Translations under genes and position numbers: made by a program | Part shown: one piece after another, positions 1 to 55,733 of the stretch | Layout: the number at the start of each line of letters is the position of its first letter | Numbering within the stretch: position 1 is the first letter of the stretch | Source of the DNA: Mobula hypostoma | Taxonomy: Eukaryota | Assembly (NCBI RefSeq): GCF_963921235.1 | Contig: NC_086107.1 | Span: 115,074,001-115,138,000, forward strand | Direction of reading: 5' to 3' | Length of the DNA: 64,000 nt | Notes under the pieces: generated by a model | Seen by the model: the letters and a program-made list of their open reading frames with translations, nothing else | What the model was told of the DNA's origin: nothing | Databases searched by the model: none

Positions 1-3000
1 CCATTGATAATTAAAGGGAAACAAAGTTTTTTTCTACCCTGATATAAGTTACGAACTTTTGAAGAAAAAGAAGAAGTTTAATCCAGTGAAAAAAACCCTA
101 TGGGATCATGGTTATCAATTTATACTGCGTTATCCTGCAACTTTGAAGATTTTTTTGCCTGGTGGAGAAAAAAGATTTTTTGATGACTACCAGAAAGCAG
201 AGCAGTTTGTGCGAGATTCTCTGAATATTCACCAGCTACAAGAACAAACTCAGGAGAGCGAGATAGATTGAAGATGAACATTGGGTTAAAGAATGGATTT
301 GTTGGATTTTCGAAGCTGGATGAATGTATAAATATATTATTAATTATATGAGGGGGTAAGAAAGGTTAATACTGGAGGAAATTAGTTGGGAATAATAATA
401 CTAATTTTGTTTATATATATATAACTTTTTTTGTTGCGGGGGAGCTGGAAGAAGCACTGATCGATTGCTACGTTAATCATGTGTGCAAGCGTGGCTATTG
501 CCACGACCCGTAAAATGGAGGGGGGTAGTGTTGTGTATCCTTTCATTCACAACATTAGTGGGGGGGGGGTATTTTGTTTTTTTTTTCTATCTCTTTTTCT
601 TTTTGCCTGGAAGGTTGGGAGGGGGGGAACACATAGCAACATGGTGAAGTTTAAAGAGATTCCCCAAGGAACTATGAGAGTTGAGAAGATAAGTAATGTT
701 TTAGATTGGAGTAACTTTGTTAAGAATAATGACTAATTTATTGAATTTTCTGAGTTTTAATGGTAATGGGCTTAATGGACCAGTGAAAAGAAAAAGAATC
801 TTAACATATATTAAAAAAATGAAGATAGATTTAGCTTTTTTTTACAGGAAACGCACCTAACAGAAACAGAACATCAGAAACTAAAGAGAGATTGGGTGGG
901 TAATGTTGTTGCGGCCTCATTTAATTCAAAAGCGAGGGGAGTAGCAATTTTGATCAATAAAACGTTACCAATTAGAATACAAAATGTAATAACTGATTCT
1001 GCGGGGAGATATGTGATTATACACTGTCAACTTTTTTCCGAACTATGGACTTTTATGAATATTTATGCACCAAACGAAAATGATGCAAAATTCATACAAG
1101 AAGCTTTTTTGAATTTGGCGGATGCACATGAAAAAATATTAATTGGAGGAGACTTTAATTTTTGCTTAGACCCAGTCTTAGATAGATCAACCAAGGCTGT
1201 TATAAAATTGAAGGTAGTAAATTTAACTTTATCATTGATGAAAGATTTAAATTTGATTTGATATATGGAGATATTCTCATAGACATAAAACTTACTCAAG
1301 GATAGATTTTTTTCTATTATCAATGCATATTCAACACAGAGTGAAAAATATGGAATATAAAGCAAGAATATTATCAGATCATTCTCCTTTATTAATGACA
1401 ATAATAATGGCTGATAAGGAAGAAGTGGCTTATAGATGGAGATTTAATTCAACATTATTAAAACGTCAAGATTTTTGTGATTTTATGAAAAAGCAGATTC
1501 AATTTTTTTTGGATACAAATTTTCATTCAGTGGAGGATAAATTTATATTATGGGATGCGATGAAAGCATATCTTAGGGGCCAGATAATAAGTTATACGTC
1601 TAAAATTAAGAAAGAATATATGGCAGAGCTAGATCAATTGGAAAAAGAGATTACAAGAATAGAAAAAGAATCTCAAAGATATATGTCAGAAGAAAAACGA
1701 AGACAACTTGTCAATAAGAAGTTACAATATAATACGCTTCAGACATATAGAACGCAAAAAGCAATTATAAGGTCTAAACAAAGGTATTAGGAGTTAGGTG
1801 AGAGAGCACATAAAATTCTTGCCTGGCAGTTGAAAACAGAACAAGTTTCCAAAACAATAAATGCAATTAGAACAAGGGCAAATAAAATATCTTATAAATC
1901 TCTTGAAATAAATGAAACCTTTAAAAATTTTTATTCTGAATTATATCAATCAGAATCCCAAAATGATGTTAATGAGATAGAAAGGTTTTTATCACAAGTT
2001 TCTCTTCCAAAATTGAATTTGGAAGAACAGAGGGGATTAGATATGCCTTTTACATTAAAAGAAGTTGAAGAAGCTTTAGGATCACTCCAAAGTAATAAAT
2101 CTCCAGGAGAAGATGGTTTTCCACCTGAATTTTATAAAAAATTTAAAGATTTATTATTTCCTCTTTTTATGGAACTAATACGTCAAGCAGAAAAAATACA
2201 TAAACTTCCAGAATCTTTTTCAACAGCGATTGTAATAGTATTGCCAAAAAAGGACAGAGATCCTATGAAACCAATATCATACAGGCCTACTTCTTTATTG
2301 AATACGGATTATAAAATAATAGCAAAAATTTTATCGAATAGATTATCTAAATATTTACCAAAATTAATACATATGGATCAAACAGGATTTATTGAAAATA
2401 GACAATTGGCAGATAATGTAACTCGGCTACTCAGTATAATTCATTTGACACAAAAAAGGGATGAGAAGAGTATAGTAGTAGCTTTGGATGCAGAAAAAGC
2501 ATTTGATAGATTAGAAATGGATTTTTTATTTAAAGTATTAGAAAAATATGGGTTAGGAACATCTTTTATAAATTGGATTAAAACTTTAAATTCTAACCCT
2601 AAAGCTAAAGTAGTGACAAACTCTCAAATTTCAACACCATTCCAGTTAAAAAGGTCAACTAGACAAGGTTGTCCACTATCACCTGCTCTATTTGTATTGG
2701 CGATAGAGCCATTAGCAGAACTAATTAGAATTGATCCAGATATTATGGGTTTTAGAGTTAACCAAGAGGAATATAAAATTAATCTTTTTGCCGATAATGT
2801 TTTGATCTATTTAACAAACCCACAAGATTCGTTACATAAATTATCTTCTAGATTGGATGAATATGGGAAGGTATCAGGTTACAAAATAAACTGGGATAAA
2901 AGTGAAATTTTATCTCTTACTAAAGGAGACTATAGTCAATGTCGATTAGTAACCCAATTTAGATGGCCGGTAAATGGTATAAAGTATTTAGGTATAAGAC

Positions 3001-4718
3001 TTGATAATGATGTAAAGAATTTATATAAATTTAATTATTTACCACTATTGAAAAAAATTCAAGAAGATCTTGACAAATGGATGATACTACCAATAACATT
3101 AGTAGGTAGAGTCAATGTTGTAAAAATGAATATATTTCCTAGATTACAGTATTTGTTTCAAACATTACCAATACAATTGCCACAGAAATTTTTTCAAGAG
3201 TTAAATAAATGTGTGAGAAAATTTCTTTGGAAAGGTAAAATGTCAAGAATATCATTGGAAAAACTGACATGTAAATTTGGGTTAGGAGGGTTACAACTTC
3301 CAAACTTTAAAAATTACTATAAAGCAAATCAGCTTAGATTTATTGCATCTTTTTTCGATGATCAAAAACCAGCATGGATTAAAATAGAACTAGACAAGAT
3401 AGGAGAAAATAAACCTGAAGATTTTATATATAAATGGGAATCTAAATGGATACGGGAAAAGAAAGAATCTCCTATATTAACACACTTGATTGATCTATGG
3501 AATAAGATAAATGTTGATAAGGAAACACAGAAATCTCTATCAGCAAGGAGACCTTTGTTTCAAAACAGACTTATTCCTTTTACAATGGACAATCAACTTT
3601 TACATAATTGGTACCAAAAAGGGATTAAGTTTATAGGAGATTGTTTTGAGCGAGGTATATTGATGTCATTTGAACAATTAAAGGATAAATATAAAATATC
3701 TAATAATACTTTTTTTTGTTACTTTCAATTAAGGGCTTACTTATTAGGTAAGCTGGGTCAAACAATGTTTTTGCCAAAACCTAATGAAATTGAAATTTTA
3801 ATTCAAAAAGGGAAAATTTAAAAATTTATTTCTTGTATGTATAATTTGATTCAAGAACAGACAATTAAACAAGGAACCCATAAGTCAAAGCAAAAATGGG
3901 AAACAGATTTGAATATTAATATTGATGAAACAAATTGGTCAAGACTTTGTCTTGACAGTATGACAAATACAATAAATGTTCGACTTAGATTAGTACAATA
4001 TAATTTTTTACACCAATTATATATTACACCACAAAAAATAAATAGATTAAATTCAAATCTATCTGATAAATGTTTTCGGTGTAATCAAGAAATTGGTACT
4101 TTTTTACATTCTACTTGGTCTTGTTTTAAAATTCAACCCTTTTGGATAAATTTAAGAGTCTTATTGGAACAAATTACTGGAATTCAACTTCCACATAACC
4201 CTGTATTATTTCTATTAGGTGATATTGAAGGGATAAAACCGAATCTTAAATTGAATAAATATCAGAAAGAATTTATAAAAATTGCATTGGCAGTAGCTAA
4301 GAAGACTATAGCAGTTACTTGGAAATCCGATTCGTATTTAAGTATGGATCGTTGGAATAATGAAATGGCTAGTTCTATTCCACTTGAAAAAATTACTTAT
4401 AATTTAAGAGATAAATATGTAACATTCTTGAATATTTGGCGCCCTTATTTACAAAAGATAGGATGGCATATTTAAGTGCTCCGACAAAGAATTTGGTTAC
4501 TTGGGGAAAGTAACGAATAATTATACCAAATTTATTTTGAATCCCATGGAGCATGTGGAAACCTTCCAATACCCAGGCGGCTCTTTTTTTTTCTCTTTCT
4601 TTCTTTTTAGGTAGGACTATATATGGGGGGTGGGGGAGGGTTAAGGGGAGGGGGTGGGTAGATTTTATCTTTTCATGTATTTTTGAAAATTTAATAAAAA
4701 TTATATTTTTAAAAAAGT
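1..4718 (+). mobile_element. L1/Tx1-clade LINE, 5' end outside window, decayed
   Basis: ORF1 C-terminus (..FYPDISYELLKKKKKF..ILRYPATLKIF, to 271), an inter-ORF spacer, then ORF2 pieces with APE endonuclease (NIYAPN, GGDFN, SDH), RT (QGCPLSP) and C-terminal cysteine motif (CFRC..GTFLHSTWSC). 3' UTR has a G-tract, AATAAA at ~4693 and an A tail at ~4711-4717. Confidence 0.95.
729..4475 (+). pseudogene. Disrupted L1/Tx1 ORF2 (endonuclease/reverse transcriptase)
   Basis: ATG at 729 (MTNLLNFLSFNGNGLNGPVKR). Frameshift in the T-run at ~840, disruption at ~1261-1320, in-frame stops at 1788 and 3819. The catalytic FADD reads FADN (TTT GCC GAT AAT, 2787-2798). Confidence 0.9.
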
Positions 4719-22930: not shown

Positions 22931-24305
22931 GTTTCTCACCGGCCCCAGAGGTGCCACAGAGGGAGCAGAACACAGCCCGGTGAAAACTTGCAGTTACCTG
23001 GGGAATTTCGGTCGGCGCGGGTGAGTAACGTATGGCAAAGAGAGGGAGCGAGATGTCCGACCAACCCCCGCTGAAAAGCGGACGGGCAGAGAGAGCTTGT
23101 GTTGGAGGAGCGACGGCCGAGCGGGTGAATCGCGCTCGCTCCGGTTCTTAAACGGTCCGAGAGGGGGCGCGCTTCGTCACACACAGAACAGAACAGCACC
23201 GCACCTGACAAACCCATGAATTTAGTTATTCCGTTTCTGTAAATTCTCCTGCGATTTGCTCTTCTGTATTCTACAGAGGAGATGTACCAGCTTGGTGCAT
23301 GGACCGGGGAGCAATTTTTACCAGGAGAGATTGAGCAAGCTGGGGTTTTTCACTTTAGTGCGAAGGACAATTAGAGGTGACACGACAGAGATGTGCAAAA
23401 AGCATAAATAGAAAGGAGATTCAAAGACTTTATCAGAACAGAAATGGTTAATACGCAGGTCATAATTTTAGGGTGAATGTATAGGTTCCTGAATCTTCAG
23501 ACTGCTGTGCCTCGTCCCTGTTGGTAGTATTGTAAAGAGGGCAAAACTCGGATTTCGAGGGTCCTTACTGATGGATGCCACGTTTTTGAGGCACCGCGTC
23601 TTGTAGAAGCCCTCAATGTCGGGGAAAAGTTGTACCCATGACAGGGCTGGCTGAGTCGAGGAATCTCTGCAGCCTCTTGTCATCATATGCGCTACAGCAG
23701 CTAGACAAGGCGACGATCCAGCCAGGCAGAACGCTCTCCGCCATACCCCGGTGGAAATCTGCAAGTCTTCGGTGATACACCAAATTTCCCCAATTTCCCA
23801 GTGAGGCAGAGCCCTGGGCGTGTGTCCTTCGTGATCGTATCGATATGTTGGGCTAGGGGAAGACCGTCTCGATGTTGGCGCCCAGGAACTAGAAGCTGCT
23901 CACCCTTTCCACAGCTGACCCTTATCCACTTGCGTGGCGATCATTGAACTTTGAAACTGGATCAGGAACAGCTCTATACCTTCTGCCATCAGATTTCCGA
24001 ACTGTCCATGATCCCATGAACACGACTTCACTATTCGTGTTGCTTTAGTTTTATAATTTATAGCACTTTTAAAGTATTGCACTTCACTACTGCCGAAAAA
24101 CAACAAATTTGATGGCAGGTCAGTGAGTTAGATAGCACGAGTAAGATCCATTCGGCTCATCTTATATTTTTATTATATTTATGTTATGTCATCGCATATT
24201 TTTCTGTATTACCAATGTCTCTCTAACCTTTGCCCGTCCTCATGTGCGATTATGACTAAAAAAGGAAATTGCCTTTTACACCACCAGCCGCCTATGTGCG
24301 ATTAT

Positions 24306-24800
24306 GTCAGTCAGTCAGTGGGTGCCGTCCCGAATCGGGGGTTGGCGGCTCTGCACCTCCATCTTCTTCGATAGTGCGACAGCACCGAGTACAGCCTCTC
24401 CTCCAGTTTGTTCTCGCTGGCCACCTTGGCACCACCCGCCGCCGCCCCGCTGAACTCGAGCCCGAGGCCGTGGCCGCTTCTTCGAGCTCGGCCCTTCTTT
24501 AGGCGGAGGCCTTGGGCAGGTCCAGACACACGGTGCAGCGTTCAAGTTCATCATGTCTCTTCTAACTAAGCGCATAGCATACGATTCGTAGATAAGTGGT
24601 GAGGCTTTCGTCTCTTCCACGGAAGATGGCCGCTGGCTCACAAGGAGCTCATCCGCCCTTTGTCAGGTCTTGTTGTTTTTAGTCCTGCTGGGTGTCCTCA
24701 CACCCTCCTCACCAGACTAAGTCCCGTGGGGGAGCCGGCCCAAGTGGCCGCCCCCCGCCGAATCTCTCCGAGCGCCCGGCGCCCGACCGAAAAACCATGC
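24306..24800 (-). mobile_element. RTE-derived chimeric retroelement carrying a CYHR1/ZFTRAF1-like coding fragment
   Basis: 9-bp TSD TGCGATTAT (24297-24305 / 24801-24809). Minus strand has an RTE-like 5' segment, then the insert at 24539-24379, then an RTE-type 3' end (RRRWRCRAANP..) with an (ACTG)n tail. Confidence 0.7.
24379..24539 (-). pseudogene. CYHR1: Captured, circularly permuted fragment of a CYHR1/ZFTRAF1-like coding exon
   Basis: Reads [c][11 protein letters not shown] (24539-24504) then ..[18 protein letters not shown][c] (24503-24379). From recall, CYHR1 reads [26 protein letters not shown]. Confidence 0.75.
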
Positions 24801-26249
24801 TGCGATTATATTACCTTTTAAATGATGTAATTGTACCCAGATCATTCTTTGCACTTTGATCTCGTTTAAATATTTGCCCTTCCTCCCCTTCCTTCTGCAC
24901 TCTCTTCCTTCCTTCTCTCTCTCCATCCATTTCCCCTCTGTTCCGTCTTTCGTCTCCCTACCCTCCCTTTTCCGTCCCTCCACTACCTTTTTCTCCACCC
25001 CTCCTCCCCACTCCTCACATTCTCTGCTCTCATTTTCGTCTTCCTCCGAATCCCCTCTCCTCTCCCTCTTAACCCTTCCCTCACTCTCTTTCCCTCCCCC
25101 TCTTTCCCTCTACCCTCCCCCACTCTATCTCATTCTTCACTTCCACTCTCCTTTCTCGCCCTCTGCATTCCCTTGCTTCACTGTAGGCTCCCCGTACCCT
25201 GGGGGAAAGACTGTGATCACTGATCTGATTTGTGGCCCTCGTGATCGTATATAGCTCGGTGTTTGTGCCGAACTAAATTAACTTCCTTCTCTCCCCACCC
25301 CCCCCCCCCCCCATCCCTCCATTCACTGGACTGGACATCATGTGTCTATGTTATACCCTCCTGGACATCTCTTTCGTATCTTCCTCGACTGTTGCTCCCA
25401 CCCCCGGCAGCACATTCCATGCACCCTCCACTCTGTGTGAAAAACACACTCGCCCCACACATCCCCCTTGAACTTCTGTCACCATGACTGCAAGCCCTCT
25501 AGTGTCGGACATTTCCACCCTAATGAAAAACATGCTGGCTGTCTATTGTATCTTCTATGAGGCTCCCCTCAGCCGCTGCCACTCCAGGGAAAGCAACCCA
25601 CGGTTGTACGGCCTCTTCTTATAGTCCAAGCCTTCTCAATTGCATTTCTATTGACACACCTGTCCAGATACATCCCGGCTTGGCCCGGCAACTGTTCTTC
25701 CCGTGATCACCACAAACCACAGAGAGATATGGACATAGACTGAACACATCATGGAAACCAGCCTCCGCACCACGAACTCTGTCTAATCTTCCTGTTGTTC
25801 GGTAAAGCAGCCGGCAAAGACCCCCACTCACACCGGGAATTCTCTCTTTTACCCGTTCCCATCGGGCAGAAGATACAAAAGCCTAAAAGTACAGCTTCTA
25901 CCCCACTGTTGTAAAACTATTGAACAATCCCCGAGTATTGTTGGACTCTTCACCTCCCAATCTACTTTATCGCAGCTCTTGCGCCCTATTTTCCGCCAGC
26001 ACTGCACTTCCTCTTTCGCTGTTACATTTTATTCTGTTATTATTTTTCCTGTGCTACCTCAATGTACTGTTATAAAGAATTGATCCGTATGCACTTTATG
26101 CAAACCAGCATTTTCCCTGTATCTCGGCACATGTGGCAGTAATACAGTAAACCAATTCTAATTCCAATTCCAACTCCAAGCTGGAAGTGAAGGTGGGAAG
26201 TGACGAAGGGCTGAGGGTGTTGTAATAGAGCTTTGACCAGCGACCGATC

Positions 26250-38485: not shown

Positions 38486-40647
38486 ACATAGAAACATAGA
38501 AAATAGGTGCAGGAGTAGGCCATTCGGCCCTTCGAGCCTGCACCGCCATTTATTATGATCATGGCTGATCATCCAACTCAGAACCCAGCCTTCCCTCCAT
38601 ACCCCCTGACCCCTGTAGCCACAAGGGCCATATCTAACTTCCTTTTAAACATAGCTAATGAACTGGCCTCAACAGTTTGCTGTGGCAGAGAATTCCACAG
38701 ATTCACCACTCTCTGTGTGAAGAAGTTTTTCCTAACCTCGGTCCTAAAAGGCTTCCCCTCTATCCTCAAACTGTGACCCCTCGTTCTAGACCTCCCCAAC
38801 ATCGGGAACAATCTTCCTGCATCTAGCCTGTCCAATCCCTTTAGGATCTTATACGTTTCAATCAGATCCCCCCTCAATCTTCTAAATTCCAACGAGTACA
38901 AGCCCAGTTCATCCAGTCTTTCTTCATATGAAAGACCTGCCATCCCAGGAATCAATCTGGTGAACCTTCTTTGTACTCCCTCTATGGCAAAGATGTCTTT
39001 CCTCAGATTAGGGGACCAAAACTGCACACAATACTCCAGGTGTGGTCTCACCAAGGCCTTGTACAACTGCAGTAGTACCTCCCTGCTCCTGTACTCGAAT
39101 CCTCTCGCTATAAATGCCAGCATACCGTTCGCCTTTTTCACCGCCTGCTGTACCTGCATGCCCACTTTCAATGACTGGTGTATAATGACACCCAGGTCTC
39201 GTTGCACCTCCCCTTTTCCTAATCGGCCACCATTCAGATAATAATCTGTTTTCCTATTTTTGCCACCAAAGTGGATAACTTCACATTTATCCACATTAAA
39301 TTGCATCTGCCATGAGTTTGCCCACTCACCCAACCTATCCAAGTCACCCTGCATCCTCTTAGCATCCTCCTCACTGCTAACACTGCCACCCAGCTTCGTG
39401 TCATCCGCAAACTTGGAGATGCTGCATTTAATTCCCTCATCCAAGTCATTAATATATATTGTAAACAACTGGGGTCCCAGCACTGAGCCTTGCGGTACCC
39501 CACTAGTCACCGCCTGCCATTCTGAAAAGGTCCCGTTTATTCCCACTCTTTGCTTCCTGTCTGCTAACCAATTCTCCACCCACACCAATACCTTACCCCC
39601 AATACCGTGTGCTTTAAGTTTGCACACTAATCTCCTATGTGGGACCTTGTCAAAAGCCTTTTGAAAATCCAAATATACCACATCCACTGGTTCTCCCCTA
39701 TCCACTCTACTAGTTACATCCTCAAAAAATTCTATGAGATTCGTCAGACATGATTTTCCTTTCACAAATCCATGCTGACTTTGTCCGATCATTTCACCGC
39801 TTTCCAAATGTGCTGTTATCACATCCTTGATAACTGACTCCAGCAGTTTCCCCACCACCGACGTTAGGCTAACCGGCCTATAATTCCCCGGTTTCTCTCT
39901 CCCTCCTTTTTTAAAAAGTGGGGTTACATTAGCCACCCTCCAATCCTCAGGAACTAGTCCAGAATCTAACGAGTTTTGAAAAATTATCACTAATGCATCC
40001 ACTATTTCTTGGGCCACTTCCTTAAGCACTCTGGGATGCAGACCATCTGGCCCTGGGGATTTATCTGCCTTCAATCCCTTCAATTTACCTAACACCACTT
40101 CCCTACTAACATGTATTTCGCTCAGTTCCTCCATCTCACTGGACCCTCTGTCCCTTACTATTTCTGGAAGATTATTTATGTCCTCCTTAGTGAAGACAGA
40201 ACCAAAGTAATTATTCAATTGGTCTGCCATGTCCTTGCTCCCCATAATCAATTCACCTGTTTCTGTTTGCAGGGGACCTACATTTGTCTTTATCAGTCTT
40301 TTCCTTTTTACATATCTATAAAAGCTTTTACAGTCCGTTTTTATGTTCTCTGCCAGTTTTCTCTCATAATCTTTTTTCCCCTTCCTAATTAAGCCCTTTG
40401 TCCTCCTCTGCTGAACTCTGAATTTCTCCCAGTCCTCAGGTGAGCCACTTTCTCTGGCTAATTTGTATGCTACTTCTTTGGAATTGATACTATCCCTAAT
40501 TTCTCTTGTCAGCCACGGGTGCACTACCTTCCTTGATTTATTCTTTTGCCAAACTGGGATGAACAATTGTTGTAGTTCATCCATGCAACCTTTAAATGCC
40601 TGCCATTGCATATCCACCGTCAATCCTTGAAGTGTCATTTGCCAGTC
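38486..40647 (-). mobile_element. Young 5'-truncated CR1 with an uninterrupted ~690-codon RT reading frame
   Basis: ORF 38578-40662 has [21 protein letters not shown] and KFADDTKLGG with no stops. (TTTCTATG)n tail; 5-bp TSD ATGAA (38481-85 / 40648-52). Removing it restores the L1 frame SDHAASS|LSIHIEK. Confidence 0.95.
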
Positions 40648-43600
40648 ATGAACTAGCAGCATGGTCGCTGATTACTATGCCATCCTCCCAGCAACTTTTA
40701 ATCTTTGATAAGAGCTCTCTTGAGACAAGAAAATAATCAGTACTACAACGAGATTTACATGTACTTGAATGGCAAGAGTATTCTATTTTGCCAGGGTTTT
40801 GTTCTCTTCGTACTTCAACCAAATTTATATCCACAATGTATTGTTTTAGTAATTTTCTAGTTTGTGCCTTATAGGTATCACAGCCTGTAGAGTGATCCAT
40901 TGCTGGGTTTAAAGTGCAATTAAAGTCTCCTGCAATGATATAAAAGCCCCGTAAAGTGGACATAGTAAGGAATTTTTTAAAAAAAAAATTAGGATTATCC
41001 TCATTTAGGCCATATATACTGACTAGGTTTAATGTGAAAGAGAGGTTATTGCCTTGCGTGATAACATACCTTCCGGCTGAGTCTTAGATTGTTTCCACAG
41101 TTTGAAATGGTATCGTTCTTTGAATAAGAATAAGTACACCTCTAGCAGAGTTGTTGTATGTTGCATATATTACTTGGCCAGGCCATCTATTCTGTACCAA
41201 TTTCATATCTGAGACCGTCAGATGAGTTTCTTGAAGAAAAATTATTTTGCACTTAAGCTGTTTGATCCTATTCATAACCTGTTTCAATTTGATTAACTTC
41301 TTTAGTCCCCTAACATTCCAGCTTGTGACTTTTATATTACAGATATTCTGAGTGCTCGTTTGTTCCATATATAGTACATGTCAATTACACCAGGAAAGGA
41401 GTAAGAAATATTACTGCTGTGTTGGGTGCACGACATACATAAAGAAAAACAAAAAGCACATATACATTTACACATTTGAACTCTTGAATTCCCCCTCCTT
41501 TACTCAAAACAAAAAACTATAGGGCTTGTGTTGATTCACTCTATGGAGGAGCAGTTAAACTATGCGAACCTAACTCCACAGGCAACTAGTGGTGTCCATC
41601 AGCCATGCAGCTTATTATATCATGAACATTATATACTCAACCCACTTAGCATAAAAATAAAATCAAAGTAGCCACTGAACTGTATTGCCTATTATAAGTA
41701 TTCATTCAGGTCCGTGGAGTTCCATCTCAATAGAATCAAGGTTTCCACAAACAAAAATGTTATAAATAATAAAAACAGGCAAAATGATAAAGCTATTCTG
41801 ACGGCAAAAACAACCTCTTAAATACAGTATCTTTTCAAGAACAGAATAAAAGAGGCTAAAGTGGTAGTTCTAGTAAAAACAAATAAAGGAAGAAAAAAGA
41901 TGTCTTCTGGGACTCAGTGTAGTCTTATACCTGTTGGGCAGTCAGTATCAGCCGATCCTCATGGGTATGAAAGTAAACAAATCTCATCACTGCCTTAATC
42001 AGATCCTTCAGGCGTGTCCTCGATGGAAATCATCCGCCTCTTTTGGTGATGAAAACAGGTGTATTTTCCCATTGTGAAGGACCCTCATCTTGCGTGGATT
42101 ATGTTGAAACCCGCGGGAAGTCCCTTTTTCGACGAACACTCTTCTGACCGTGTTGAACTAGTTTCGCTGTCGCATGGTCTCAGCTGAGAGGTCCCGAGCG
42201 AAAAAAAAGCTTGTTTCCCTCAGACGTGATATTTCTCTGTTTAGTGGAGCGGAAAACAAACTGCTGATCTTGAAGTTTCAGGAACCGAATGAGAACCGCT
42301 CTGTTCTGGTTTGGTTTCGGCGGTGCTAGAGTTGCGGTGAACTCTTTCTAGAATGAAGGATCTGTGTCGGTGTCCAGCTCCAGCCAGCGCGGTAGCGCAT
42401 TTTGTATGGACTCCAGCGGTGGCTGGTTTTCCCAGAGGACGAACAACCGCAAGTTTTTCCCTTTGATTCCAATTCTCCAGATCTTCAGTCTTGTATTCCA
42501 GGTAGGCGATTCGTTTCATGCCGTCGGTTAGTTCAGTCTTGTTCTTTCCCAGGTGCTCCTCTGTCGTCATTATGCTGTTTTCAACCTCTTCCATCCGTGT
42601 GGTATTAGAAGCAACATTTCGCTTCACCTCTGACAAGTTTCTTCGACAGTTAAACGGGGCATGACTACGCAAGCGCGTGGAAGTCGGACCGTGAGGCAGC
42701 GGGAGTATTTAAAAGAGAGCAGATTAACGGAGCGGGCGACGTTGCAGCTGGCGACGGAGTGGAGGGAGACAGAGTAGGAAGGCTTTGGCTCCTGAGGCTT
42801 CGGTGAGCAGAGACTAAGGAAGAGCTTCACTCCAAGTGAGGTAAGGCCGGGTAAGTTCCTTTAACAAATCTAATTACTGTACCTTAAGAGTAGGTAATGG
42901 AGGGAGCAGTTCGGGCAGTCGAGTGCTCCGTTTGCAGGATGTGGGAAGTCAGTGTGAGCACAATCGTCCCTGATGACTACACCTGTGAAAGGTGCATCCA
43001 GCAGCAGCTCCTGACAGACCGAGTTAGGGAACTGGAGCTGGAGCTGGATGAACTTAGGATCATTCGTGAGGAAGAGGCAGAAATAAACAGGAGTTACAGG
43101 GAGGTGGTCACCCCTAAGAATCAGGAGACAGGTAGCTGGGTGACTGTCAGGAGAGGGAAGGGGAATAGACAGAATGAGCAGAGCACCCCTGTGGCCGTTC
43201 CCATCAAAAATAAGTATACCGTTTTGGATACTGTTGATGGGGACGACCTACCAGGGACAAGTTGCAGTGGTTACGTCTCTGGCACTGAGACTGGACCCTC
43301 AACTCAGAAGGAAAGGAGGGAAAAGAGGAGAGAGGTAGTGATAGGGGATTCGATAGTCAGGGGGACAGATAAGAGATTCTCTGGAAGAGATCGAGAATCT
43401 CGGATTGTTTGTTGCCTCCCTGGTGCCAAGGTCTGCGATATCTCGGATCGAGTTCTCGGTATTCTCAAGAGGGAGGGTGAATAGCCGGATGTCATGGTCC
43501 ATGTAGGGACCAATGACGTGGGTAGGAAGAGTGTGGAGGTCCTGAAAGGTGAGTTCAGGGAGTTAGGCGCCAAGTTAAAGGACAGGACCTCCAGGATAGC

Positions 43601-43815
43601 AATCTCAGGATTGCTACCAGTGCCACGTGCAGGCTGGTTTAGAAACAGTAAGATAGCACAGATCAACACGTGGCTGAAGACATGGTGCTGGAGGGAGGGC
43701 TTCAGATTTAGAGATAATTGGGAAGTTTTCGAAGGAGCGGAGCTTTGGGGCTTTGACTCGAGAGGCTTCGACGAGAAGAGGCGGAGGACAAGCTAGCTCG
43801 CAGTTAGTTTTTACA

Positions 43816-44754
43816 ATGTCTCCTGAGCCGGTGATGTGCCTCTCATGTGAGATGTGGCAGTCTTGGGGGAACTCCCCTCTCCCGCAGAGTCACATCTGCC
43901 AGAAGTGCATACAGCTGGGCGATCTGGAAGACCGCGTAAGGAATCTGGAGCAGCGGCTGGATGACCTTCGACTCATAAGGGAGAATGAGGCAGTCATAGA
44001 TGAGAGCTACAGGGAGGTAGTCACACCTAAGCTGTCGGAAGCAGGTCATTGGGTGCCAATCAGAGGGGGAAAAGCGAAGGTGAGCAAATGGGTAGTGCAG
44101 AGCACCCCTGTAGCCATTCCGCTGAATAAGTTTACCGTCCTGGATACTGTCGGCGGGGACGACCGACCAGGTGTGAGCCACGGTGGCAGGGCCTCCGGCA
44201 CTGAGTCTGACTCTGTGGTGCAGAAGGGTGGGATGGAGAAGAGGAGAGCTGTCGTCATTGGAGACTCTATAGTCAGGGGAGCAGACAGGAGATTTTGTGC
44301 ACGTGAGAAGGACACCCGCATGGTTTGTTGCCTCCTGGGTGCCAGGGTCCGGGATGTCTCTGACCGGGCGCACGACATCCTGGTACGAGAGGGAAAGCAA
44401 CCAGAAGTCGTGATACATGTTGGTACCAACGACATAGGCAGGAAGAGGGATGAGCTCCTGAAGTGTGAGTTTCCGGAACTAGGCAGAAGGCTGAAGAACA
44501 GGACCTCAAGGGTGGCGTTCTCAGGATTGCTGACAGTGCTACGTGACAGTGATGGTAAGAATTGGAGGAGATGGCAGTTGAATGCGTGGCTGAGGAGTTG
44601 GTGCAGGGAGCAGGGTTTTAGATTTTTGGATCATTGGGATCTCTTCTGGGGAAGGTGGGACCTGTACAGATTGGATGGGTTGCACCTGAACTCGAGGGGG
44701 AGCAATATCCTTGCAGGTCGGTTTGCTGGCATGGTTCGAGAGGGTTTAAACTAA
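43816..44754 (+). CDS. CR1 ORF1p (zinc finger, coiled coil, SGNH/GDSL esterase), intact reading frame, 312 aa
   Basis: MSPEPVMCLSC..CQKC; VIGDSIVRG; HVGTND; DGLHLN; no internal stop. Confidence 0.8.
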   Translation: MSPEPVMCLSCEMWQSWGNSPLPQSHICQKCIQLGDLEDRVRNLEQRLDDLRLIRENEAVIDESYREVVTPKLSEAGHWVPIRGGKAKVSKWVVQSTPVAIPLNKFTVLDTVGGDDRPGVSHGGRASGTESDSVVQKGGMEKRRAVVIGDSIVRGADRRFCAREKDTRMVCCLLGARVRDVSDRAHDILVREGKQPEVVIHVGTNDIGRKRDELLKCEFPELGRRLKNRTSRVAFSGLLTVLRDSDGKNWRRWQLNAWLRSWCREQGFRFLDHWDLFWGRWDLYRLDGLHLNSRGSNILAGRFAGMVREGLN

Positions 44755-47040
44755 TTTGCGAGGGCGGTGGGACCCAGAGTGATAGAGCAGTGAAAAAAGT
44801 GCATGGAGTAAAGCCAGATCTAACATACAGAGAGGCTTTGAGGAAAGAGGAGCAGAATAAACGGTGTAAAGACAGTAAGGTAGAAGGGCTGAAATGTGTG
44901 TACCTCAATGCAAGAAGCATCAGGAACAAAGGTGATGAACTGAGAGCTTGGATACATACATGGAATTATGATGTAGTGGCCATTACAGAGACTTGGCTGG
45001 CACCAGGGCAGGAATGGATTCTCAATATTCCTGGATTTCAGTGCTTTAAAAGGGATAGAGAGGGGGCAAAAGGGGAGGAGGGGTGGCATTACCGGTCAGG
45101 GATACTATTACAGCTACAGAAAGGGTGGGTAATGTAGTAGGATCCTCTTTTGAGTCAAAATGTGTGGAAGTCAGGAACAGGAAGGGAGCAGTTACTCTAT
45201 TGGGGGTATTCTATAGGCCCCCTGGTAGCAGCAGAGATACAGAGGAGCAGATTGGAAGGCAGATTTTGGAAAGGTGCAAAAATAATAAGGTTGTTATCAT
45301 GGGTGACTTTAACTTCCCTAATATTGATTGGCACCTGATTAGTTCCAAGGGTTTAGATGGGGCAGAGTTTGTTAAGTGTATCCAGGATGGATTCCTGTCA
45401 CAGTACGTGGACAGGCCGACCAGAGGAATACCATACTAGATCTAGTATTAGCTAATGAACCGGGTCAGATCACAGATCTCTCAGTGGGTGAGCATCTGGG
45501 GGACAGTGACCACCGCCCCCTGACCTTTAGCATTAACATGGAAAAGGATAGAATCAGAGAGGACAGGAAAATTTTTAATTGGGGAAAGGCAAATTATGAG
45601 GCCATAAGGCTAGAACTTGCGGGTGTGAATTGGGATGATGTTTTTGCAGGGAAGTGTACTATGGACATGTGGTCAATGTTTAGAGATCTCTTGCGGGATG
45701 TTAGGGATAAATTTGTCCCGGTGAGGAAGATAAAGAATGGTAGGGTGAAGGAACCATGGGTGACAAGTGAGGTTGAAAATCTAGTCAGGTGGAAGGCAGC
45801 AGCATACATGAGGTTTAGGAAGCAAGGATCAGATGGGTCTATTGAGGAATACGGAGAAGCAAGAAAGGAGCTTAAGAAGGGGCTGAGAAGAGAAAGAAGG
45901 GGACACGAGAAGGCCTTGGCGAGTAGGGTAAAGGAAAACCCCAAGGCATTCTTCAATTATGTGAAGAAAAAAAGGATGACAGGAGTGAAGGTAGGACCGA
46001 TTAGAGATAAAGGTGGGAAGATGTGCCTGGAGGCTGTGGAAGTGAGCGAGGTCCTCAATGAATATTTCTCTTCGGTATTCACCAATGAGAGGGAACTTGA
46101 TGATGGTGAGGACAATATGGGTGAGATGATGTTCTGGAGCATGCTGATATTAAGGGAGAGGAGGTGTTGGAGTTGTTAAAATACATTAGGACAGATAGGT
46201 CCCGGGGGCCTGACGGAATATTCCCCAGGCTGCTCCACAAGGCGAGAGGAGAGATTGATGAGCCTTTGGTTAGGATCTTTATGTCCTCGTTGTCCATGGG
46301 AATAGTACCGGAGGACTGGAGGGAGGCGGATGTTGCCCCTTGTTCAAAAAAGGTAGTAGGGATAGTCCGGCTAATTATAGACCAGTGAGCCTTACGGCTG
46401 TGGTGGGAAAGCTGTTGGAAAAGATTCTTAGAGATAGGATCTATAGGCATTTAGAGAATCATGGTCTGATCAGGGACAGTCAGCATGGCTTTGTGAGGGC
46501 AGATCGTGTCTAACAAACCTGATAGAGTTCTTTGAGGAGGTGACCAGGCATATAGATGAGGGTAGTGTAGTGGATGTAATCTATATGGATTTTAGTAAGG
46601 CATTTGACAAGGTTCCACACGGTAGGCTTATTCAGAAAGTTAGAAGGCATGGGATCCAGGGAAGTTTGGCCAGGTGGATTCAGAATGGGCTTGCCTGCAG
46701 AAGGCAGAAGGTGGTGCTGGAGGGAGTACATTCAGATTGGAGGATTGTGACTAGTGGTGTCCCACAAGGATCTGTTCTGGAACCTCTACTTTTCGTGATT
46801 TTTATTAACGACCTGGATGTGGGGGTAGAAGGGTGGGTTGGCAAGTTTGAAGACGACACAAAGGTTGGTGATGTTGTAGATAGTGTAGAGGATTGTCAAA
46901 GATTGCAGGGAGACATTGATAGGATGCAGGAGTGGACTGAGAAGTGGCAGATGGAGTTCAACCCGGAGAAGTGTAAGGTGACATACATCAAAGTTACTGG
47001 TGAACGCAGCAGGCCAAGCAGCATCTATAGGAAGAGGCGC

Positions 47041-47076
47041 AATCGACGTTTCAGGCCGAGACCCTTCGTCAGGACT
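47041..47076 (-). ncRNA. Minimal type I hammerhead ribozyme motif (inverted copy)
   Basis: Reverse complement reads AGTCCTGACGAAGGGTCTCGGCCTGAAACGTCGATT, with an intact core. Confidence 0.7.
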
Positions 47077-47114
47077 AACTGAAGGAACTAACTTCCAGTT
47101 AACTTCCTTCAGTT

Positions 47115-47150
47115 AGTCCTGACGAAGGGTCTCGGCCTGAAACGTCGACT
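47115..47150 (+). ncRNA. Minimal type I hammerhead ribozyme motif
   Basis: AGTC-CTGACGA-AGGgtctcggCCT-GAAAC-GTC^GACT: stem I, CUGANGA core, stem II, GAAA, palindromic loop-less stem III and a GUC cleavage triplet. Confidence 0.75.
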
Positions 47151-50100
47151 GCGCCTCTTCCTATAGATGCTGCTTGGCCTGCTGCGTTCACCAGCAACTT
47201 TGGTGTATGTTGCTTGAATTTCCAGCATCTGCAGAATTCCTGTTGTTTGAAGTGTGAGGTGATACACTTTGGAAGGACAAACTCCAAGGCAGAGTACAAA
47301 GTAAATAGCAGGATACCTGGTAGTGTGGAGGAGCAGAGGGATCTCGGGGTACATGTCCACAGATACCTGAAAGTTGCCTCGCAGGTGGATAGGGTAGTTA
47401 AGAAAGCTTATGGGGTGTTAGCTTTCATAAGTCGAGAGATAGAGTTTAAGAGTCGCGATGTAATGATGCAGCTCTATAAAACTCTGGTTAGGCCACACTT
47501 GGAGTACTGTGTCCAGTTCTGGTCACCTCACTATAGGAAGGATATGGAAGCATTGGAAAGGGTACAGAGGAGATTTACCAGGATGCTGCCTGGTTTAGAG
47601 AGTATGCATTATGATCAGAGATTAAGGGAGCTAGGGCTTTACTCTTTGGAGAGAATGAGGATGAGAGGAGACATGATAGAGGTGTACAAGATAATAAGAG
47701 GAATAGACAGAGTGGACAGCCAGCGCCACCTCCCCAGAGGACCACTGCTCAATACAAGAGGACATGGCTTTAAGGTAAGGGGTGGGAAGTTCAAGGGGGA
47801 TATTAGAGGAAGATTTTTTACTCAGAGAGTGGTTGGTGCGTGGAATGCACTGCCTGAGTCAGTGGTGGAGGCTGATACACTAGTGAAGTTTAAGAGACTA
47901 CTAGACAGGTATATGGAGGAATTTAAGGTGGGGGCTTAAATGGGAGGCAGGGTTTGAGGGTCGGCACAACATTGTGGGCCGAAGGGCCTGTACTGTGCTG
48001 TACTATTCTATGTTCTATGTTTCCAGGGAAGGTGGGACCTGTTCCAACGGGACGGTTTACATCCGAACTGGAGGGGGACAAATATTCCTGCAGGTAGGTT
48101 TGCTAGAGAGGTTTCGATGGATTAAAACTAGATACAAAGGGGGAGGGAAAACAGAGTGTAGGAACAGATGTAGGGGAGAAGGAAGAAAAAGAAAATAGTA
48201 AAGTTGTTGGCACCCTTAGTGTTAAGCAGAGAGTAGGAGGTGGAACAGTTCTTAAATGCATTTAATTTAATGCTAGGAGCATTGTAAGAAAGGTCGATGA
48301 GCTTGAAGCATGGATTGATACCTGGAAGTATGATGTGGTAGCTATTAGTGAAACATGGTTACAGGAGGGCTGTGATTGGCAACTAAATATTCCTGGATTT
48401 AATTGCTTCAGGTGTGATAGAATCGTAGGCACAAGAGGGGGAGATGTTGCATAGCTTGTCAAGGAAAATATTGCAACGGTGCTCTGGCAGAGTAGATTAG
48501 AGGGCTCGTCTAGGGAGGCTATTTGGGTGGAATTGAGGAATGGGAAAGGTGTAGTAACACTTATGGGGCTGTATTATAGACCACCAAATGGGGAGCGAGA
48601 ATTGGAGGAGCAAATTTGTAAGGAGATAGCAGATATTTGTAGTAAGCACAAGGTTGTGATTGTGGGAGATTTTAATTTTCCACACAGAGACTGGGAAGCC
48701 CATTCTGTAAAAGAGCTGGATGGTTTGGAGTTTGTGAAATGTGGGCAGGATAGTTTTTTGCAGCAATACATAAAGGTACCAACTACATAAGGGGCAGTGT
48801 TGGATCTCCTGTTAGGGAATGAGATAGGTTAGGTGACGGAGATTTGTGTTGGGAGCACTTCGGGTCCAGTGATCACAATGCTATTAGTTTCAATATAATT
48901 ATGGAGAAGAATAGGTCTGGACCTAGGGTTGAGAATTTTGATTGGAGAAAGCTAACTTTGAGGCGATGCGAAAGGATTTAGAAGGAGTGGATTGGGATAA
49001 TTTGTTTTATGGGGAAAATGTAATAGAGAAATGGAGGTCATTTAAAGGTGAAATTTTGAGGTTACAGAATTTTTATGTTCCTGTTAGGGTGAAAGGAAAG
49101 GTTAAAAGTTTGAGAGAGCCACGGTTTTCAAGGAATATTGGAAACTTGGTTCGGAAAAAGAGAGATATCTACAATACATATAGGCAGCTTGGAGTAAATG
49201 AGGTACTCGAGGAATATAAAGAATGTAAAAAGAATCTTAAGAAAGAAATTAGAAAAGCTAAAAGAAGATTATGAGGTTGCTTTGGCGAGGTGAAAATAAT
49301 TCCCAAAGGTTTCTACAGTTATATTAATAGCAAAAGGATAGTGAGGGATAAAATTGGTCCCTTAGAGAATCAGAGTGGATGGCTATTTGTGGAGTCAAAA
49401 GAGATGGGGGAGATTTTGAACAATTTCTTTTCTTCGGTCTTCACTAAGGTAAAGGGTATTGAATTGTGTAAGGTAAGGGAAACAAGTAGGGAAGTTATGG
49501 AAATTATGATGATTAAAGAAGAGGAAGTACTGGCACTTTTAAGGAATATAAAAGTGGATAAGTCTCCAGGTCCTGACAGGATATTCCCAACGACCTTGAG
49601 GGAAGTTAGTGTGGAAATAGCAGGGGCTCTGACAGAAATATTTCAAATGTCATTAGAAACGGGGATGGTGCTGGAGGATTGGCGTATTGCTCATGTGGTT
49701 CCATTGTTTAAAAAGGGTTCTAAGAGTAAACCTAGCAATTATCGGCCTGTGAGTTTGACGTCAGTGGTCGGTAAATTGATGGAAAATATTCTTAGAGATG
49801 GTATATATAATTATCTGGATAGACATGGTCTGATTAGGAACAGTCAACATAGATTTGTGCGTGAAAAGTCATGTTTGACAAATCTTATTGAATTTCTTGA
49901 AGCGGTTACTAGGAAGGTTGACGAGGGTAAAGTGGTGGATGTTGTCTATATGGACTTCAGTAAGGCCTTTGGCAAGTTCCACACGGAAGGTTAGTTAGGA
50001 AGGTTCAATCGTTAGGTATTAATCTTGAGGTAGTAAAATGGATTCAGCAGTGGCTGGATGGGAGATGCCAGAGAGTAGTGGTGGATAACTGTTTGTCAGA

Positions 50101-53847: not shown

Positions 53848-55733
53848 TGTTACAAGGGGGCGCTAAAGGCGGACCCAAATGCAAGACACAGACACTGAAG
53901 TTCTAGGAACAGGACTAGGATTGTCGAGATAGCAAGGTGAGTCAGAAAGAAGCGACGCTGGACATTGACACAGGCCTTGGACGAGATTAGGATTCAGGGC
54001 CTGGGCTAGGACTTGGGCTAGAGCACGGGACCCGGACGTGGAACTAGGAATAAGGAGCCTGGACTAGGGACTCGGAAATCCGGAACCAGAGTCTGGACAA
54101 GGACTCGGAACCTGGGTCTCGACTCGAAACCGGAACCCTGGTTTAGGCAAGGACTCGGGTCTAGAATCTTGGCAAGGACAGGACTTGGCTACAGGACAGG
54201 ACGAGGTACACCAGCACAGGACGAGGAATCTCCAGCACCGGGCTGGGCGAGGTATTCCTGGGCTGGGCAAGGTACTCCTGGGCTGGGTGAGGTACTCCTG
54301 GGCTGGGCAACATACTCCTGGGCAGAGTGTGGCTTTTGGACTAGGTTTGGCTCGGCTTTTGGACTCGACTTGGTTAGGCTCTTGGGTACGGAGCCAGGAC
54401 GTCTCCTAGGAGCGCAGGGCCGGGACTCTTTCCAAGACGCAAGGCCAGGACCCTTTCTAGGAGCGCAGGGCCGGGACCCTTTCAAGGAGCGCAGGGCCGG
54501 AACCTTTCCTAGGAGCGCAGGGCCGGGACCCTTTCTAGGAACGCAGGGCCGGGGCCCTTTCTTAGACACAGGGCCGGGATAACTGCCGAGGTAAACTCTC
54601 GAGGTAAACTGCCGAGGATTCGGAGGGGGACGATCGAGCACAGGACGAGGAATCCCCAGCACATGACGAGAAATCTCTAGCACCGAGCTGGGCGAGGTAT
54701 TCCTGGGCTGGGCAAGGTACTCCTGGGCTGGGTGAGGTACTCCTGGGCTGGGCAACATACTCCTGGGCAGAGTGTGGCTTTTGGACTAGGTTTGGCTCGG
54801 CTTTTGGACTCGACTTGGTTAGGCTCTTGGGTACGGAGCCAGGACGTCTCCTAGGAGCGCAGGGCCGGGACTCTTTCCAAGACGCAAGGCCAGGACCCTT
54901 TCTAGGAGCGCAGGGCCGGGACCCTTTCAAGGAGCGCAGGGCCGGAACCTTTCCTAGGAGCGCAGGGCCGGGACCCTTTCTAGGAACGCAGGGCCGGGAC
55001 CCTTTCTTAGACACAGGGCCGGGATAACTGCCGAGGTAAACTCTCGAGGTAAACTGCCGAGGATTCGGAGGGGGACGATCCAGCACAGGACGAGGAATCC
55101 CCAGCACATGACGAGAAATCTCTAGCACCGAGCTGGGCGAGTTACTCCCGGGCTGGGCGAGTTACTCCCGGGCTGGGCGAGGGCACGAAGCTCAGTCTTG
55201 GATTAGGCTGGAACACGGCACCTGGACTTGATCTTGGAACACAGGAGCACAGAGCCTTGGACTGGAGCACAGGAACGTAGAGCCTTGGAATGGAGCACAG
55301 GAACACAAAGCCTTGGACTTAAGCACAGGAACGCAAAACACAGAGCCGGGAACCTCCTTGGGAAGCACAGGACGTAGGGCCGGGTCTCGTACACAGAACA
55401 CGGACACTAAATACGGGGACACAAAGAGACAGTTCCAAACTCAACGATAGATAGTTCTTTCTCTTGGCGTGGCAAGGCTCCAGTCTCACTCCGGCAGTTG
55501 AACTTGATGGGGATACTGACGAGGTTGCAGGCGGACGTTCAGAAGGAAGCAGAAGGGAAGGGAAGGGAACTGTCCAGCAGCCCAAGCTGAATCCAGGAGC
55601 CAGCCCGAAACTAGAATCAGGTGTCTCAATTAAAGCACCCAATGGAACAAGGGAAAACTGGAAAATCCGGAATAAGGAATCAATGAACTGGACCGTGAAC
55701 CGGAATGCAGACTTCACGGACCGGACCATGACA
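53848..55733 (-). mobile_element. Solo LTR related to 52545-53459, opposite orientation, with an internal 445-bp tandem duplication
   Basis: Minus-strand termini TGTCATGGTCCGGTCCG..GGGTCCGC..TTGTAACA match the neighbouring LTR. Period 445 (CTGGGCGAG anchors at 54243, 54688, 55133). Confidence 0.85.

What the first reader, a model, noticed from the sequence alone, without database searches (positions are those of the whole stretch)
24306..24800. Retroposed RTE-type mini-element carrying a circularly permuted piece of a host CYHR1/ZFTRAF1 exon
Seen: a 495-bp unit with a 9-bp TSD (TGCGATTAT) and an (ACTG)n tail. Between its RTE-like 5' part and RTE-like 3' end sits a GC-rich 161-nt insert (24539-24379, minus strand). 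The insert begins GC TGC ACC GTG TGT CTG GAC CTG CCC AAG GCC TCC G ([11 protein letters not shown]) and ends ..AAA CTG GAG GAG AGG CTG TAC TCG GTG CTG T ([10 protein letters not shown]). Recalled knowledge: vertebrate CYHR1 reads [26 protein letters not shown]. So the last base of the insert joins the first base exactly (CTG T|GC TGC), and the downstream part is placed first. Inference: a roughly nucleosome-sized circular template (microDNA/eccDNA or a circular RNA from a GC-rich first exon) was opened and captured by a non-autonomous RTE element, and the chimera then inserted as one unit. It could be a SINE-like family that spreads a permuted host exon. Two template switches on a linear mRNA is the alternative explanation.
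Basis: partly seen in the sequence, partly recalled or inferred. Interest (0 to 1): 0.8.

Follow-up and report, generated by a model that had tools for sequence, protein, structure and literature searches.

The report
Mini-LINE carrying a rotated host exon
A 495-base insertion in a cartilaginous-fish-like genome carries a piece of the host gene ZFTRAF1 with its two halves swapped behind a LINE-type leader; it is likely one worn copy of a small jumping element whose founder copied that piece once around a loop.

Summary
Observation confirmed. The unit 24306-24800 (minus strand) has a 9-bp direct repeat at each end and an (ACTG)n tail. Its 161-nt insert encodes two adjacent stretches of ZFTRAF1/CYHR1 in swapped order: residues 106-116 of the skate protein come first, residues 51-104 second, and the split codon accounts for residue 105. 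The 5' part matches the leader of RTE-type LINEs (6 of 27 metagenome loci; one is a complete element with target duplication and endonuclease). The 3' part matched nothing. The insert has a net +1 frameshift, so 161 nt is probably not its original size. The scan found this before on other DNA: ten unchecked notes from this genome report a family of several hundred to over 1,000 copies with a 178-nt module. The 17-nt difference fits my frameshift, but I could not count copies or see the source gene's DNA. Best reading: a worn copy of a non-autonomous RTE derivative whose founder captured the piece once, likely by reverse transcription around a circular or end-joined RNA (about 0.5); a DNA microcircle is the close rival (about 0.3). 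Each ingredient is known; I found no paper on the combination.

The parts
24297..24305 (.). Target-site duplication, copy next to the tail (9 bp)
24306..24319 (-). (ACTG)n microsatellite tail, 14 nt, 3' end of the unit
24320..24378 (-). 3' part, 59 nt; likely the end of an RTE reading frame plus 3' end (resemblance recalled, not verified)
   Evidence: no match in 34 fetched loci or in the protein search
24379..24503 (-). Piece B of ZFTRAF1/CYHR1 (skate residues about 51-104 plus one base of codon 105); upstream in the gene, placed second here; net +1 frameshift between about 24473 and 24444
24504..24539 (-). Piece A of ZFTRAF1/CYHR1 (two bases of codon 105, residues 106-116, one base of codon 117); downstream in the gene, placed first here
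24540..24800 (-). 5' part, 261 nt, RTE-type 5' leader; ends 15 nt after a pair of ATG codons (24554-24549)
24624..24738 (-). Conserved core of the RTE leader (78-84% identity to 6 metagenome loci), predicted five-helix fold
24801..24809 (.). Target-site duplication, copy at the 5' end of the unit (9 bp)
24242..24254 (.). Third copy of the target word (13-bp match to 24294-24306), outside the unit; likely an older local duplication

Best explanation
This unit has a target-site duplication, an (ACTG)n tail and an RTE-type leader around a swapped-order piece of ZFTRAF1, and is likely one worn copy of a non-autonomous element cut down from an RTE LINE and inserted here as a whole by target-primed reverse transcription. 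Shown: the anatomy, the gene identity, the swapped order, the sense orientation of the insert, the frameshift. Inferred step 1 (founder): the RTE reverse transcriptase started on the RTE 3' end, moved after about 70 nt into a short ZFTRAF1 RNA piece inside codon 105, copied to the piece's 5' end, crossed to its 3' end (a ligated RNA circle, or an end-to-end jump on a linear fragment), stopped on meeting its own starting point, and returned to the RTE leader. That one event would give both the loss of the LINE interior and a single exact round of the piece. Inferred step 2: the product kept the leader and the 3' end and was copied in trans by autonomous RTEs. Inferred step 3: this copy later lost about 17 nt from piece B. 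The structural part (retroposed RTE-derived unit with a permuted host piece) I put at about 0.9, family membership at about 0.8, and the RNA route of capture at about 0.5.
For: Exact abutment of the two pieces at the split codon, no residue lost or repeated. Insert in the same sense as the element, as RNA-level chimeras require (PMC2104539 part 1; bioRxiv 10.1101/2025.02.02.635956 passages); a DNA insert would do so half the time. The insert sits exactly where the LINE interior is missing, between a 261-nt leader and a 73-nt end, sizes close to the bipartite RTE-N2_Lch (214 + 70 bp; PMC5786205). Leader homology: 6 of 27 metagenome loci extend beyond the seed at 78-84% over 89-119 nt, E 3e-28 to 3e-16; L019 carries the motif at the 5' end of an element with a 10-bp target duplication, an APE endonuclease (PF03372, E 4e-8) and a microsatellite tail. 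One 9-bp duplication encloses all parts. Non-LTR reverse transcriptases jump between templates in vitro (PMC8857657 passages) and double jumps inside one target duplication are described (PMC2104539). Frameshift arithmetic: 178-161 = 17, and -17 mod 3 equals the observed +1 shift; a 178-nt module would leave 47 whole codons in piece B, within the 47-54 residues of the four proteins.
Against: No second copy in the 64-kb window. Copy number, the empty site, the parent LINE and the source gene's DNA were not seen here; the family rests on unchecked scan notes, and the frameshift arithmetic has a 1-in-3 chance of fitting. The 3' part matched nothing. The target duplication dates the insertion of the unit, not the capture. 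An exact single round is also what a DNA circle cut once gives, and 161-178 nt from a CpG-rich exon (CpG o/e 0.93) is the size class of microDNA; AB-to-BA insertions are attributed to DNA circles in humans (82 of 327). The first 62 nt and last 85 nt of the leader did not match the six loci better than shuffles (best 63/1000). PMC8857657 notes that characterised L1 chimeras arise from prior RNA ligation, not jumping. A third copy of the 9-mer weakens the duplication statistic.
Confidence: 0.5

Rival explanations
1. A nucleosome-sized DNA circle (microDNA) from the GC-rich coding start of ZFTRAF1 was cut once and ligated into a double-strand break inside an RTE copy, with loss of the LINE interior; that repaired copy then became the source element of the family.
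For: Size 161-178 nt; CpG-rich source (CpG o/e 0.93); loop ends not at evident splice sites; small circles are abundant in human sperm (PMC11461794 passages); circles integrate in the mouse germline and 82 of 327 source-resolved human insertions show AB-to-BA order (bioRxiv 10.64898/2026.09.03.749254).
Against: Needs a clean cut with no base lost, plus a multi-kilobase deletion at the same break, plus sense orientation (1 in 2). The human screen excluded insertions overlapping transposable elements, so it gives no precedent for this setting.
Confidence: 0.3
2. Private event: an ordinary bipartite RTE element inserted here first, and the permuted piece was captured later at this locus only.
For: No other copy in the window; the target duplication does not date the insert.
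Against: Ten unchecked scan notes place the same module at other sites of this genome (leads, not proof); the frameshift fits a 17-nt loss from their 178-nt form.
Confidence: 0.08
3. The piece comes from a canonical back-spliced circular RNA, as in circRNA-derived pseudogenes.
For: Non-colinear order and sense orientation, as in PMC4897178.
Against: The loop closes after the first base of codon 117 and at about codon 51, both inside one coding run. The Narcine models start only at residue 125 of the skate protein, which suggests the region is the first coding exon and has no upstream acceptor (inferred).
Confidence: 0.05
4. Independent template switches on an intact linear mRNA that happened to stop at the entry point.
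For: Multiple switches are documented (PMC2104539).
Against: Needs an internal entry, a forward jump of about 160-180 nt on the same mRNA and an exact stop; the exact stop follows only if the enzyme met its own first hybrid, which is the best explanation in another form.
Confidence: 0.07

Closest known systems
Bipartite non-autonomous RTE LINEs (Bov-A, RTE-N2_Lch, WALLSI3, RTESINE; Kojima 2018, PMC5786205; parts 1-2 of 5, passages and motif searches of the supplement seen) and R2 SIDEs (PMC3414825; abstract seen)
   Same: 5' leader of an RTE, short 3' part, microsatellite tail, target duplication, no coding capacity for RT or endonuclease.
   Different: A host coding piece, in swapped order, lies between the two LINE parts; none is described in the text I read. 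The 3' part was not verified as RTE here.
circRNA-derived pseudogenes (Dong et al. 2016, PMC4897178; part 1 of 2, the whole letter, seen)
   Same: Non-colinear order of host coding sequence in a retroposed copy; 33 copies of one mouse case.
   Different: Those junctions are exon-exon back-splices of several exons; here the loop is under 180 nt, closes inside a coding run and is enclosed by LINE ends. The paper itself names reverse transcription across close 5' and 3' ends as another route.
eccDNA-mediated germline insertions with AB-to-BA order (Zhang et al. 2026, bioRxiv 10.64898/2026.09.03.749254; parts 1-2 of 8 and passages seen, supplements not seen)
   Same: Cyclic permutation of one contiguous source interval.
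   Different: Single-site insertions, with those overlapping transposable elements filtered out; here the piece is inside a retroposed unit.
SVA_F1 and pt_SVA_D6 (MAST2 and STK40 first exons; Damert 2018, PMC6139936; passages seen)
   Same: A non-autonomous retroelement that carries a GC-rich host first-exon piece; those subfamilies reached 84 and 94 copies.
   Different: Acquired by splicing, colinear, at the 5' end, L1-driven; here internal, permuted and RTE-type.
LINE template-switch or RNA-ligation chimeras (Gogvadze et al. 2007, PMC2104539, part 1 of 5; bioRxiv 10.1101/2025.02.02.635956, passages; PMC6789731, search listing only)
   Same: Host RNA copy and LINE parts in the same orientation inside one target duplication.
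   Different: Known chimeras put a colinear RNA copy 5' of a LINE 3' end; here LINE sequence lies on both sides and the host piece is rotated.

Membership tests
Bipartite non-autonomous RTE LINE | 5' part derived from an RTE 5' leader | tested here: met
   115-nt core matches 6 of 27 loci at 78-84%; L019 is a complete RTE-type element with PF03372. The RTE clade label of L019 rests on recalled motifs and on five short words of L012 seen in an RTE leader passage of PMC5786205 (picked by eye).
Bipartite non-autonomous RTE LINE | 3' part derived from the 3' end of the partner RTE | tested here: inconclusive
   No match in 34 loci or protein search; the parent family was not among them.
Bipartite non-autonomous RTE LINE | Target-site duplication and microsatellite tail | tested here: met
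Bipartite non-autonomous RTE LINE | No RT or endonuclease coding region | tested here: met
   495 nt; six-frame translation; no tblastn hit of L019's frames in the window
Bipartite non-autonomous RTE LINE | Dispersed multiple copies of the same structure | not testable with these tools
   No genome held; no read-level data obtained; only unchecked notes
Bipartite non-autonomous RTE LINE | 5' self-cleaving ribozyme (some RTE families) | tested here: inconclusive
   No Rfam match at E<=1; my rough HDV-like descriptor found 0 hits, 2 of 40 shuffles had one; no positive control was run
SINE with small-RNA head | tRNA, 5S or 7SL-derived Pol III head | tested here: not met
   No Rfam match in 23500-25500; the head region is RTE leader
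circRNA-derived pseudogene | Non-colinear order of host coding sequence | tested here: met
circRNA-derived pseudogene | Junction at a back-spliced exon-exon boundary | tested here: inconclusive
   Both ends fall inside a coding run, which argues against; source DNA not seen
eccDNA-mediated AB-to-BA insertion | One contiguous source interval, cyclically permuted | tested here: met
   At protein and codon level only
eccDNA-mediated AB-to-BA insertion | DNA (not RNA) circle as the donor | not testable with these tools
   No intron or junction feature separates the two
LINE template-switch chimera | All parts in one orientation inside one target duplication | tested here: met
LINE template-switch chimera | 5' part is a full-length, colinear copy of a cellular RNA | tested here: not met
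   The host piece is internal, partial and permuted

The most novel reading that the evidence does not exclude
A LINE reverse transcriptase copied a small circle of a host exon exactly once, and the product founded a retroposon family of about a thousand copies that spread the rotated exon through the genome. The capture may have helped it spread: the CpG-rich piece could act as an internal promoter element, as MAST2 does in SVA_F1, and with a 178-nt module one open frame of about 86 codons would run from the leader's ATG through piece A, into piece B in its native ZFTRAF1 frame and out through the 3' part to a stop in the tail.
Probability: 0.3. Interest if true: 0.75.

Novelty: new variant of a known kind. 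Interest (0 to 1): 0.55.

Why it matters
Heritable copies of small circles are usually seen as single insertions, and their donor (RNA or DNA) is rarely known. If this unit is a family, its many copies allow the founder's three junctions to be read at base level against the source gene and the parent LINE, which would make the RNA-versus-DNA question testable for a circle under 180 nt. It would also show a route by which bipartite LINE derivatives gain a middle body from a host gene, a part whose origin Kojima 2018 calls enigmatic. Practical point: hundreds of such fragments would disturb mapping and annotation of ZFTRAF1 in this lineage. No function for the host is indicated, and this copy is decayed.

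Tried and rejected
Whole genome: none held. Read- and contig-level test: no data obtained, so copy number, empty site and source-gene DNA stay open. ESM Atlas: no usable hit for piece B. Rfam: none. Scan look-ups by sequence and by relatives: nothing. Protein search with piece B plus the 3' part: 1 candidate, none at E<=10. Search for closer ray ZFTRAF1 N-termini: 4 of 2098 candidates, two skates, a sawfish and a catshark; none gives the source species' own sequence. Viral contigs: 0 of 7 loci extend beyond the seed; 21 of 27 metagenome loci were seed-only chance hits and were dropped. Motif search of the Kojima 2018 supplement: 0 of 4 long motifs, 2 of 5 short ones in unrelated contexts. Extension of leader homology to the ATG: 63/1000 shuffles as good, rejected. 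Folding of the 5' part z = -1.7, of the 3' part z = -0.3: no support for a special 3' hairpin. 'Insert is ordinary RTE interior': rejected, it matches ZFTRAF1 and not L019's frames. 'The duplication is only the local repeat': rejected as main reading, since the copy abutting the tail and the copy at the leader's end bracket the unit. Literature: searches listed no paper on a retroelement carrying ZFTRAF1/CYHR1 (0 occurrences in the 15 rows shown of 3,923); Repbase and Dfam are not available here, so the family may be catalogued there.

Full report
Context. The window is eukaryotic and rich in LINE remnants (long RT-like frames; clade names recalled). The nearest proteins to the insert are from skates, a sawfish and a catshark, so the host is likely a cartilaginous fish. 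No genome is held.

Observation. The unit runs 24800 to 24306 on the minus strand: 261-nt 5' part, 36-nt piece A, 125-nt piece B, 59-nt 3' part, 14-nt (ACTG)n tail. TGCGATTAT flanks it at 24297-24305 and 24801-24809. A third copy at 24245-24253 belongs to a 13-bp local duplication. The word occurs 3 times in the window against 0.6 expected; the chance that the word abutting the tail recurs within 100 positions at the other end is about 5e-4, less impressive given the local duplication. No second copy of the unit lies in the window.

The insert. Piece B, translated, found 2 proteins at E<=10 among 87 candidates, both ZFTRAF1/CYHR1 of skates (E 0.48, 0.64). Pairwise, B matches residues 93-104 at 12/12 and A matches residues 106-116 at 11/11; tblastn against the window gives E 8e-8 for B and 0.025 for A. 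All 4 chondrichthyan proteins with this N-terminus read LEEGPSSKKRARLE, a variable linker, then [10 protein letters not shown], Cys, and the stretch of piece A. In the window A precedes B. The last base of B and the first two of A make the codon of Cys105, and the neighbouring bases on both sides differ from what the gene would continue with, so the seam is exact by codon arithmetic. The source DNA itself was not seen. B starts at about Leu51: it reads P-K-E-G-P-S-S-K-K-R, so the first two codons differ from the conserved L-E (decay, or filler at the loop junction; not separable here). The 23 conserved codons near the seam show no amino-acid change, so the copy is only lightly diverged.

Frameshift. 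B's two ends are in different frames (net +1). Frameshift-aware alignment gives either one break near 24467 or two breaks near 24473-24465 and 24453-24444 with several residues missing, depending on the penalty and the protein (9 runs). So 161 nt is probably not the captured length.

The 5' part. An 18-nt leader word found 27 metagenome loci; 6 extend to 89-119 nt at 78-84% identity and 21 are seed-only. The six come from two assemblies and are likely animal DNA. In L019 the motif lies at the 5' end of a 2.9-kb element with a 10-bp target duplication, an APE endonuclease frame (PF03372, E 3.8e-8), a second frame without Pfam match and a (CAGT)n end; its motifs are RTE-like by recall. L024 continues into an ATG and an endonuclease-like start (by recall, not scanned). 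L012 continues into five short words in the order seen in an RTE leader passage of PMC5786205's supplement (picked by eye). The core folds into five helices with 93.5% of cells paired and 3 of 31 pairs with double-sided change (structure derived from the same six sequences, so modest support). The first 62 and last 85 nt of the leader had no significant match. No ribozyme was detected.

The 3' part. It matched none of 34 loci and no protein. One frame reads like the end of an RTE reading frame, but that is recalled. Its RTE origin is unverified.

Earlier notes. The scan's notes list the same module at other places in this genome: 10 distinct notes seen, 18 fitting the look-up, at 1.3, 2.9, 6.0 and 7.7 Mb upstream and on other pieces. 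They report 176-179 nt, mostly 178, and several hundred to over 1,000 copies. These are unchecked leads. One claim I could partly test: 178-161 = 17, and a 17-nt loss gives the +1 shift seen; 178-36 = 142 nt leaves 47 whole codons plus one base, in the range of the four proteins (47-54 residues). This changed my reading from a possibly private event to a family member.

Mechanism. Best: a founder made by an RTE reverse transcriptase that left the LINE RNA near its 3' end, went once around a short ZFTRAF1 RNA (ligated circle or end-to-end jump), stopped at its own entry point and returned to the leader; then copying in trans; then decay of this copy. In favour: sense orientation, position flush with the missing LINE interior, exact single round, one target duplication. 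Template jumping by non-LTR enzymes (PMC8857657, passages), double jumps within one duplication (PMC2104539, part 1), in vivo jumps and internally deleted elements of R2 (PMC3414825, abstract) and RNA ligation before retrotransposition (PMC6789731, listing only) are precedents. Against: a DNA microcircle cut once gives the same order, and the size and CpG richness (o/e 0.93 against 0.56 for the window) fit microDNA; such circles occur in sperm (PMC11461794, passages) and 82 of 327 source-resolved human insertions show AB-to-BA order (bioRxiv 10.64898/2026.09.03.749254, passages; supplements not seen). I put RNA route 0.5, DNA circle 0.3, private capture 0.08, chance switches on intact mRNA 0.07, canonical back-splice 0.05.

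An open frame. In this copy one frame is open for 115 codons from the leader through the insert to near the tail. It passes two ATGs 15 nt before the insert, crosses A out of frame without a stop and enters B in the native ZFTRAF1 frame. With a 178-nt module it would stay in that frame to the end of B and run on through the 3' part, about 86 codons in all. Chance is roughly 1 in 10, and neither the ATG nor the 3' frame is shown to be the LINE's own; it is a lead only.

Comparison. It works like a bipartite non-autonomous RTE element (PMC5786205, parts 1-2 and passages); membership is met for leader, tail, duplication and lack of coding region, open for the 3' part and copy number. It is not a small-RNA-headed SINE. 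It shares the swapped order with circRNA-derived pseudogenes (PMC4897178, whole letter) and eccDNA insertions but not their setting, and shares host-exon cargo with SVA_F1 (PMC6139936, passages) but not its splice origin. Nine literature searches listed no paper on this combination; Repbase and Dfam could not be checked.

Verdict. Real feature; new variant of a known kind; interest 0.55. What is shown is one decayed, clean example of a rotated host coding piece inside a retroposed RTE-type unit. The family and the route of capture remain to be tested on the genome.

Noticed in passing
window 24242-24306: 13-bp direct repeat spaced 52 nt, whose second copy is the element's target; the sequence after each copy also shares a 10-of-11 word by eye, suggesting an older tandem duplication at the target.
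   Followed up: partly
window 24662-24318, minus strand (approximate): One frame open for 115 codons across leader, insert and 3' part; with a 178-nt module it would read piece B in its native frame and continue through the 3' part (about 86 codons from the ATG at 24554).
   Followed up: partly
window 24738-24624 and L005, L012, L015, L019, L024: Conserved RTE leader core with a predicted five-helix fold, 3 of 31 pairs with double-sided changes; no Rfam family matches.
   Followed up: partly
L019:2964-5853 (minus strand, approximate): Complete 2.9-kb RTE-type element with a 10-bp target duplication, endonuclease and C-terminal frame but apparently no RT core, i.e. an internally deleted copy that inserted as a unit; animal DNA in a metagenome assembly.
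   Followed up: partly
L005, L012, L014, L015, L019, L024 element starts: All six begin with a GGTCA-type short repeat, the reverse sense of common RTE tails; not seen at the 5' end of the window's unit.
   Followed up: no
window about 24631-24623 and 24367-24359: An 8-bp complementarity between the 5' part and the 3' part of the element's sense strand, seen by eye; chance not tested.
   Followed up: no
window 54192-55182: 445-bp tandem repeat, 2.2 copies, 96% identity, built of 13-26-bp subrepeats.
   Followed up: no
window 1257-4475 (+), 38578-40671 (-), 43678-47939 (+): Long LINE reading frames (676 and 697 codons for the longest); L1/Tx1-like and CR1-like by recalled motifs, not scanned.
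   Followed up: no
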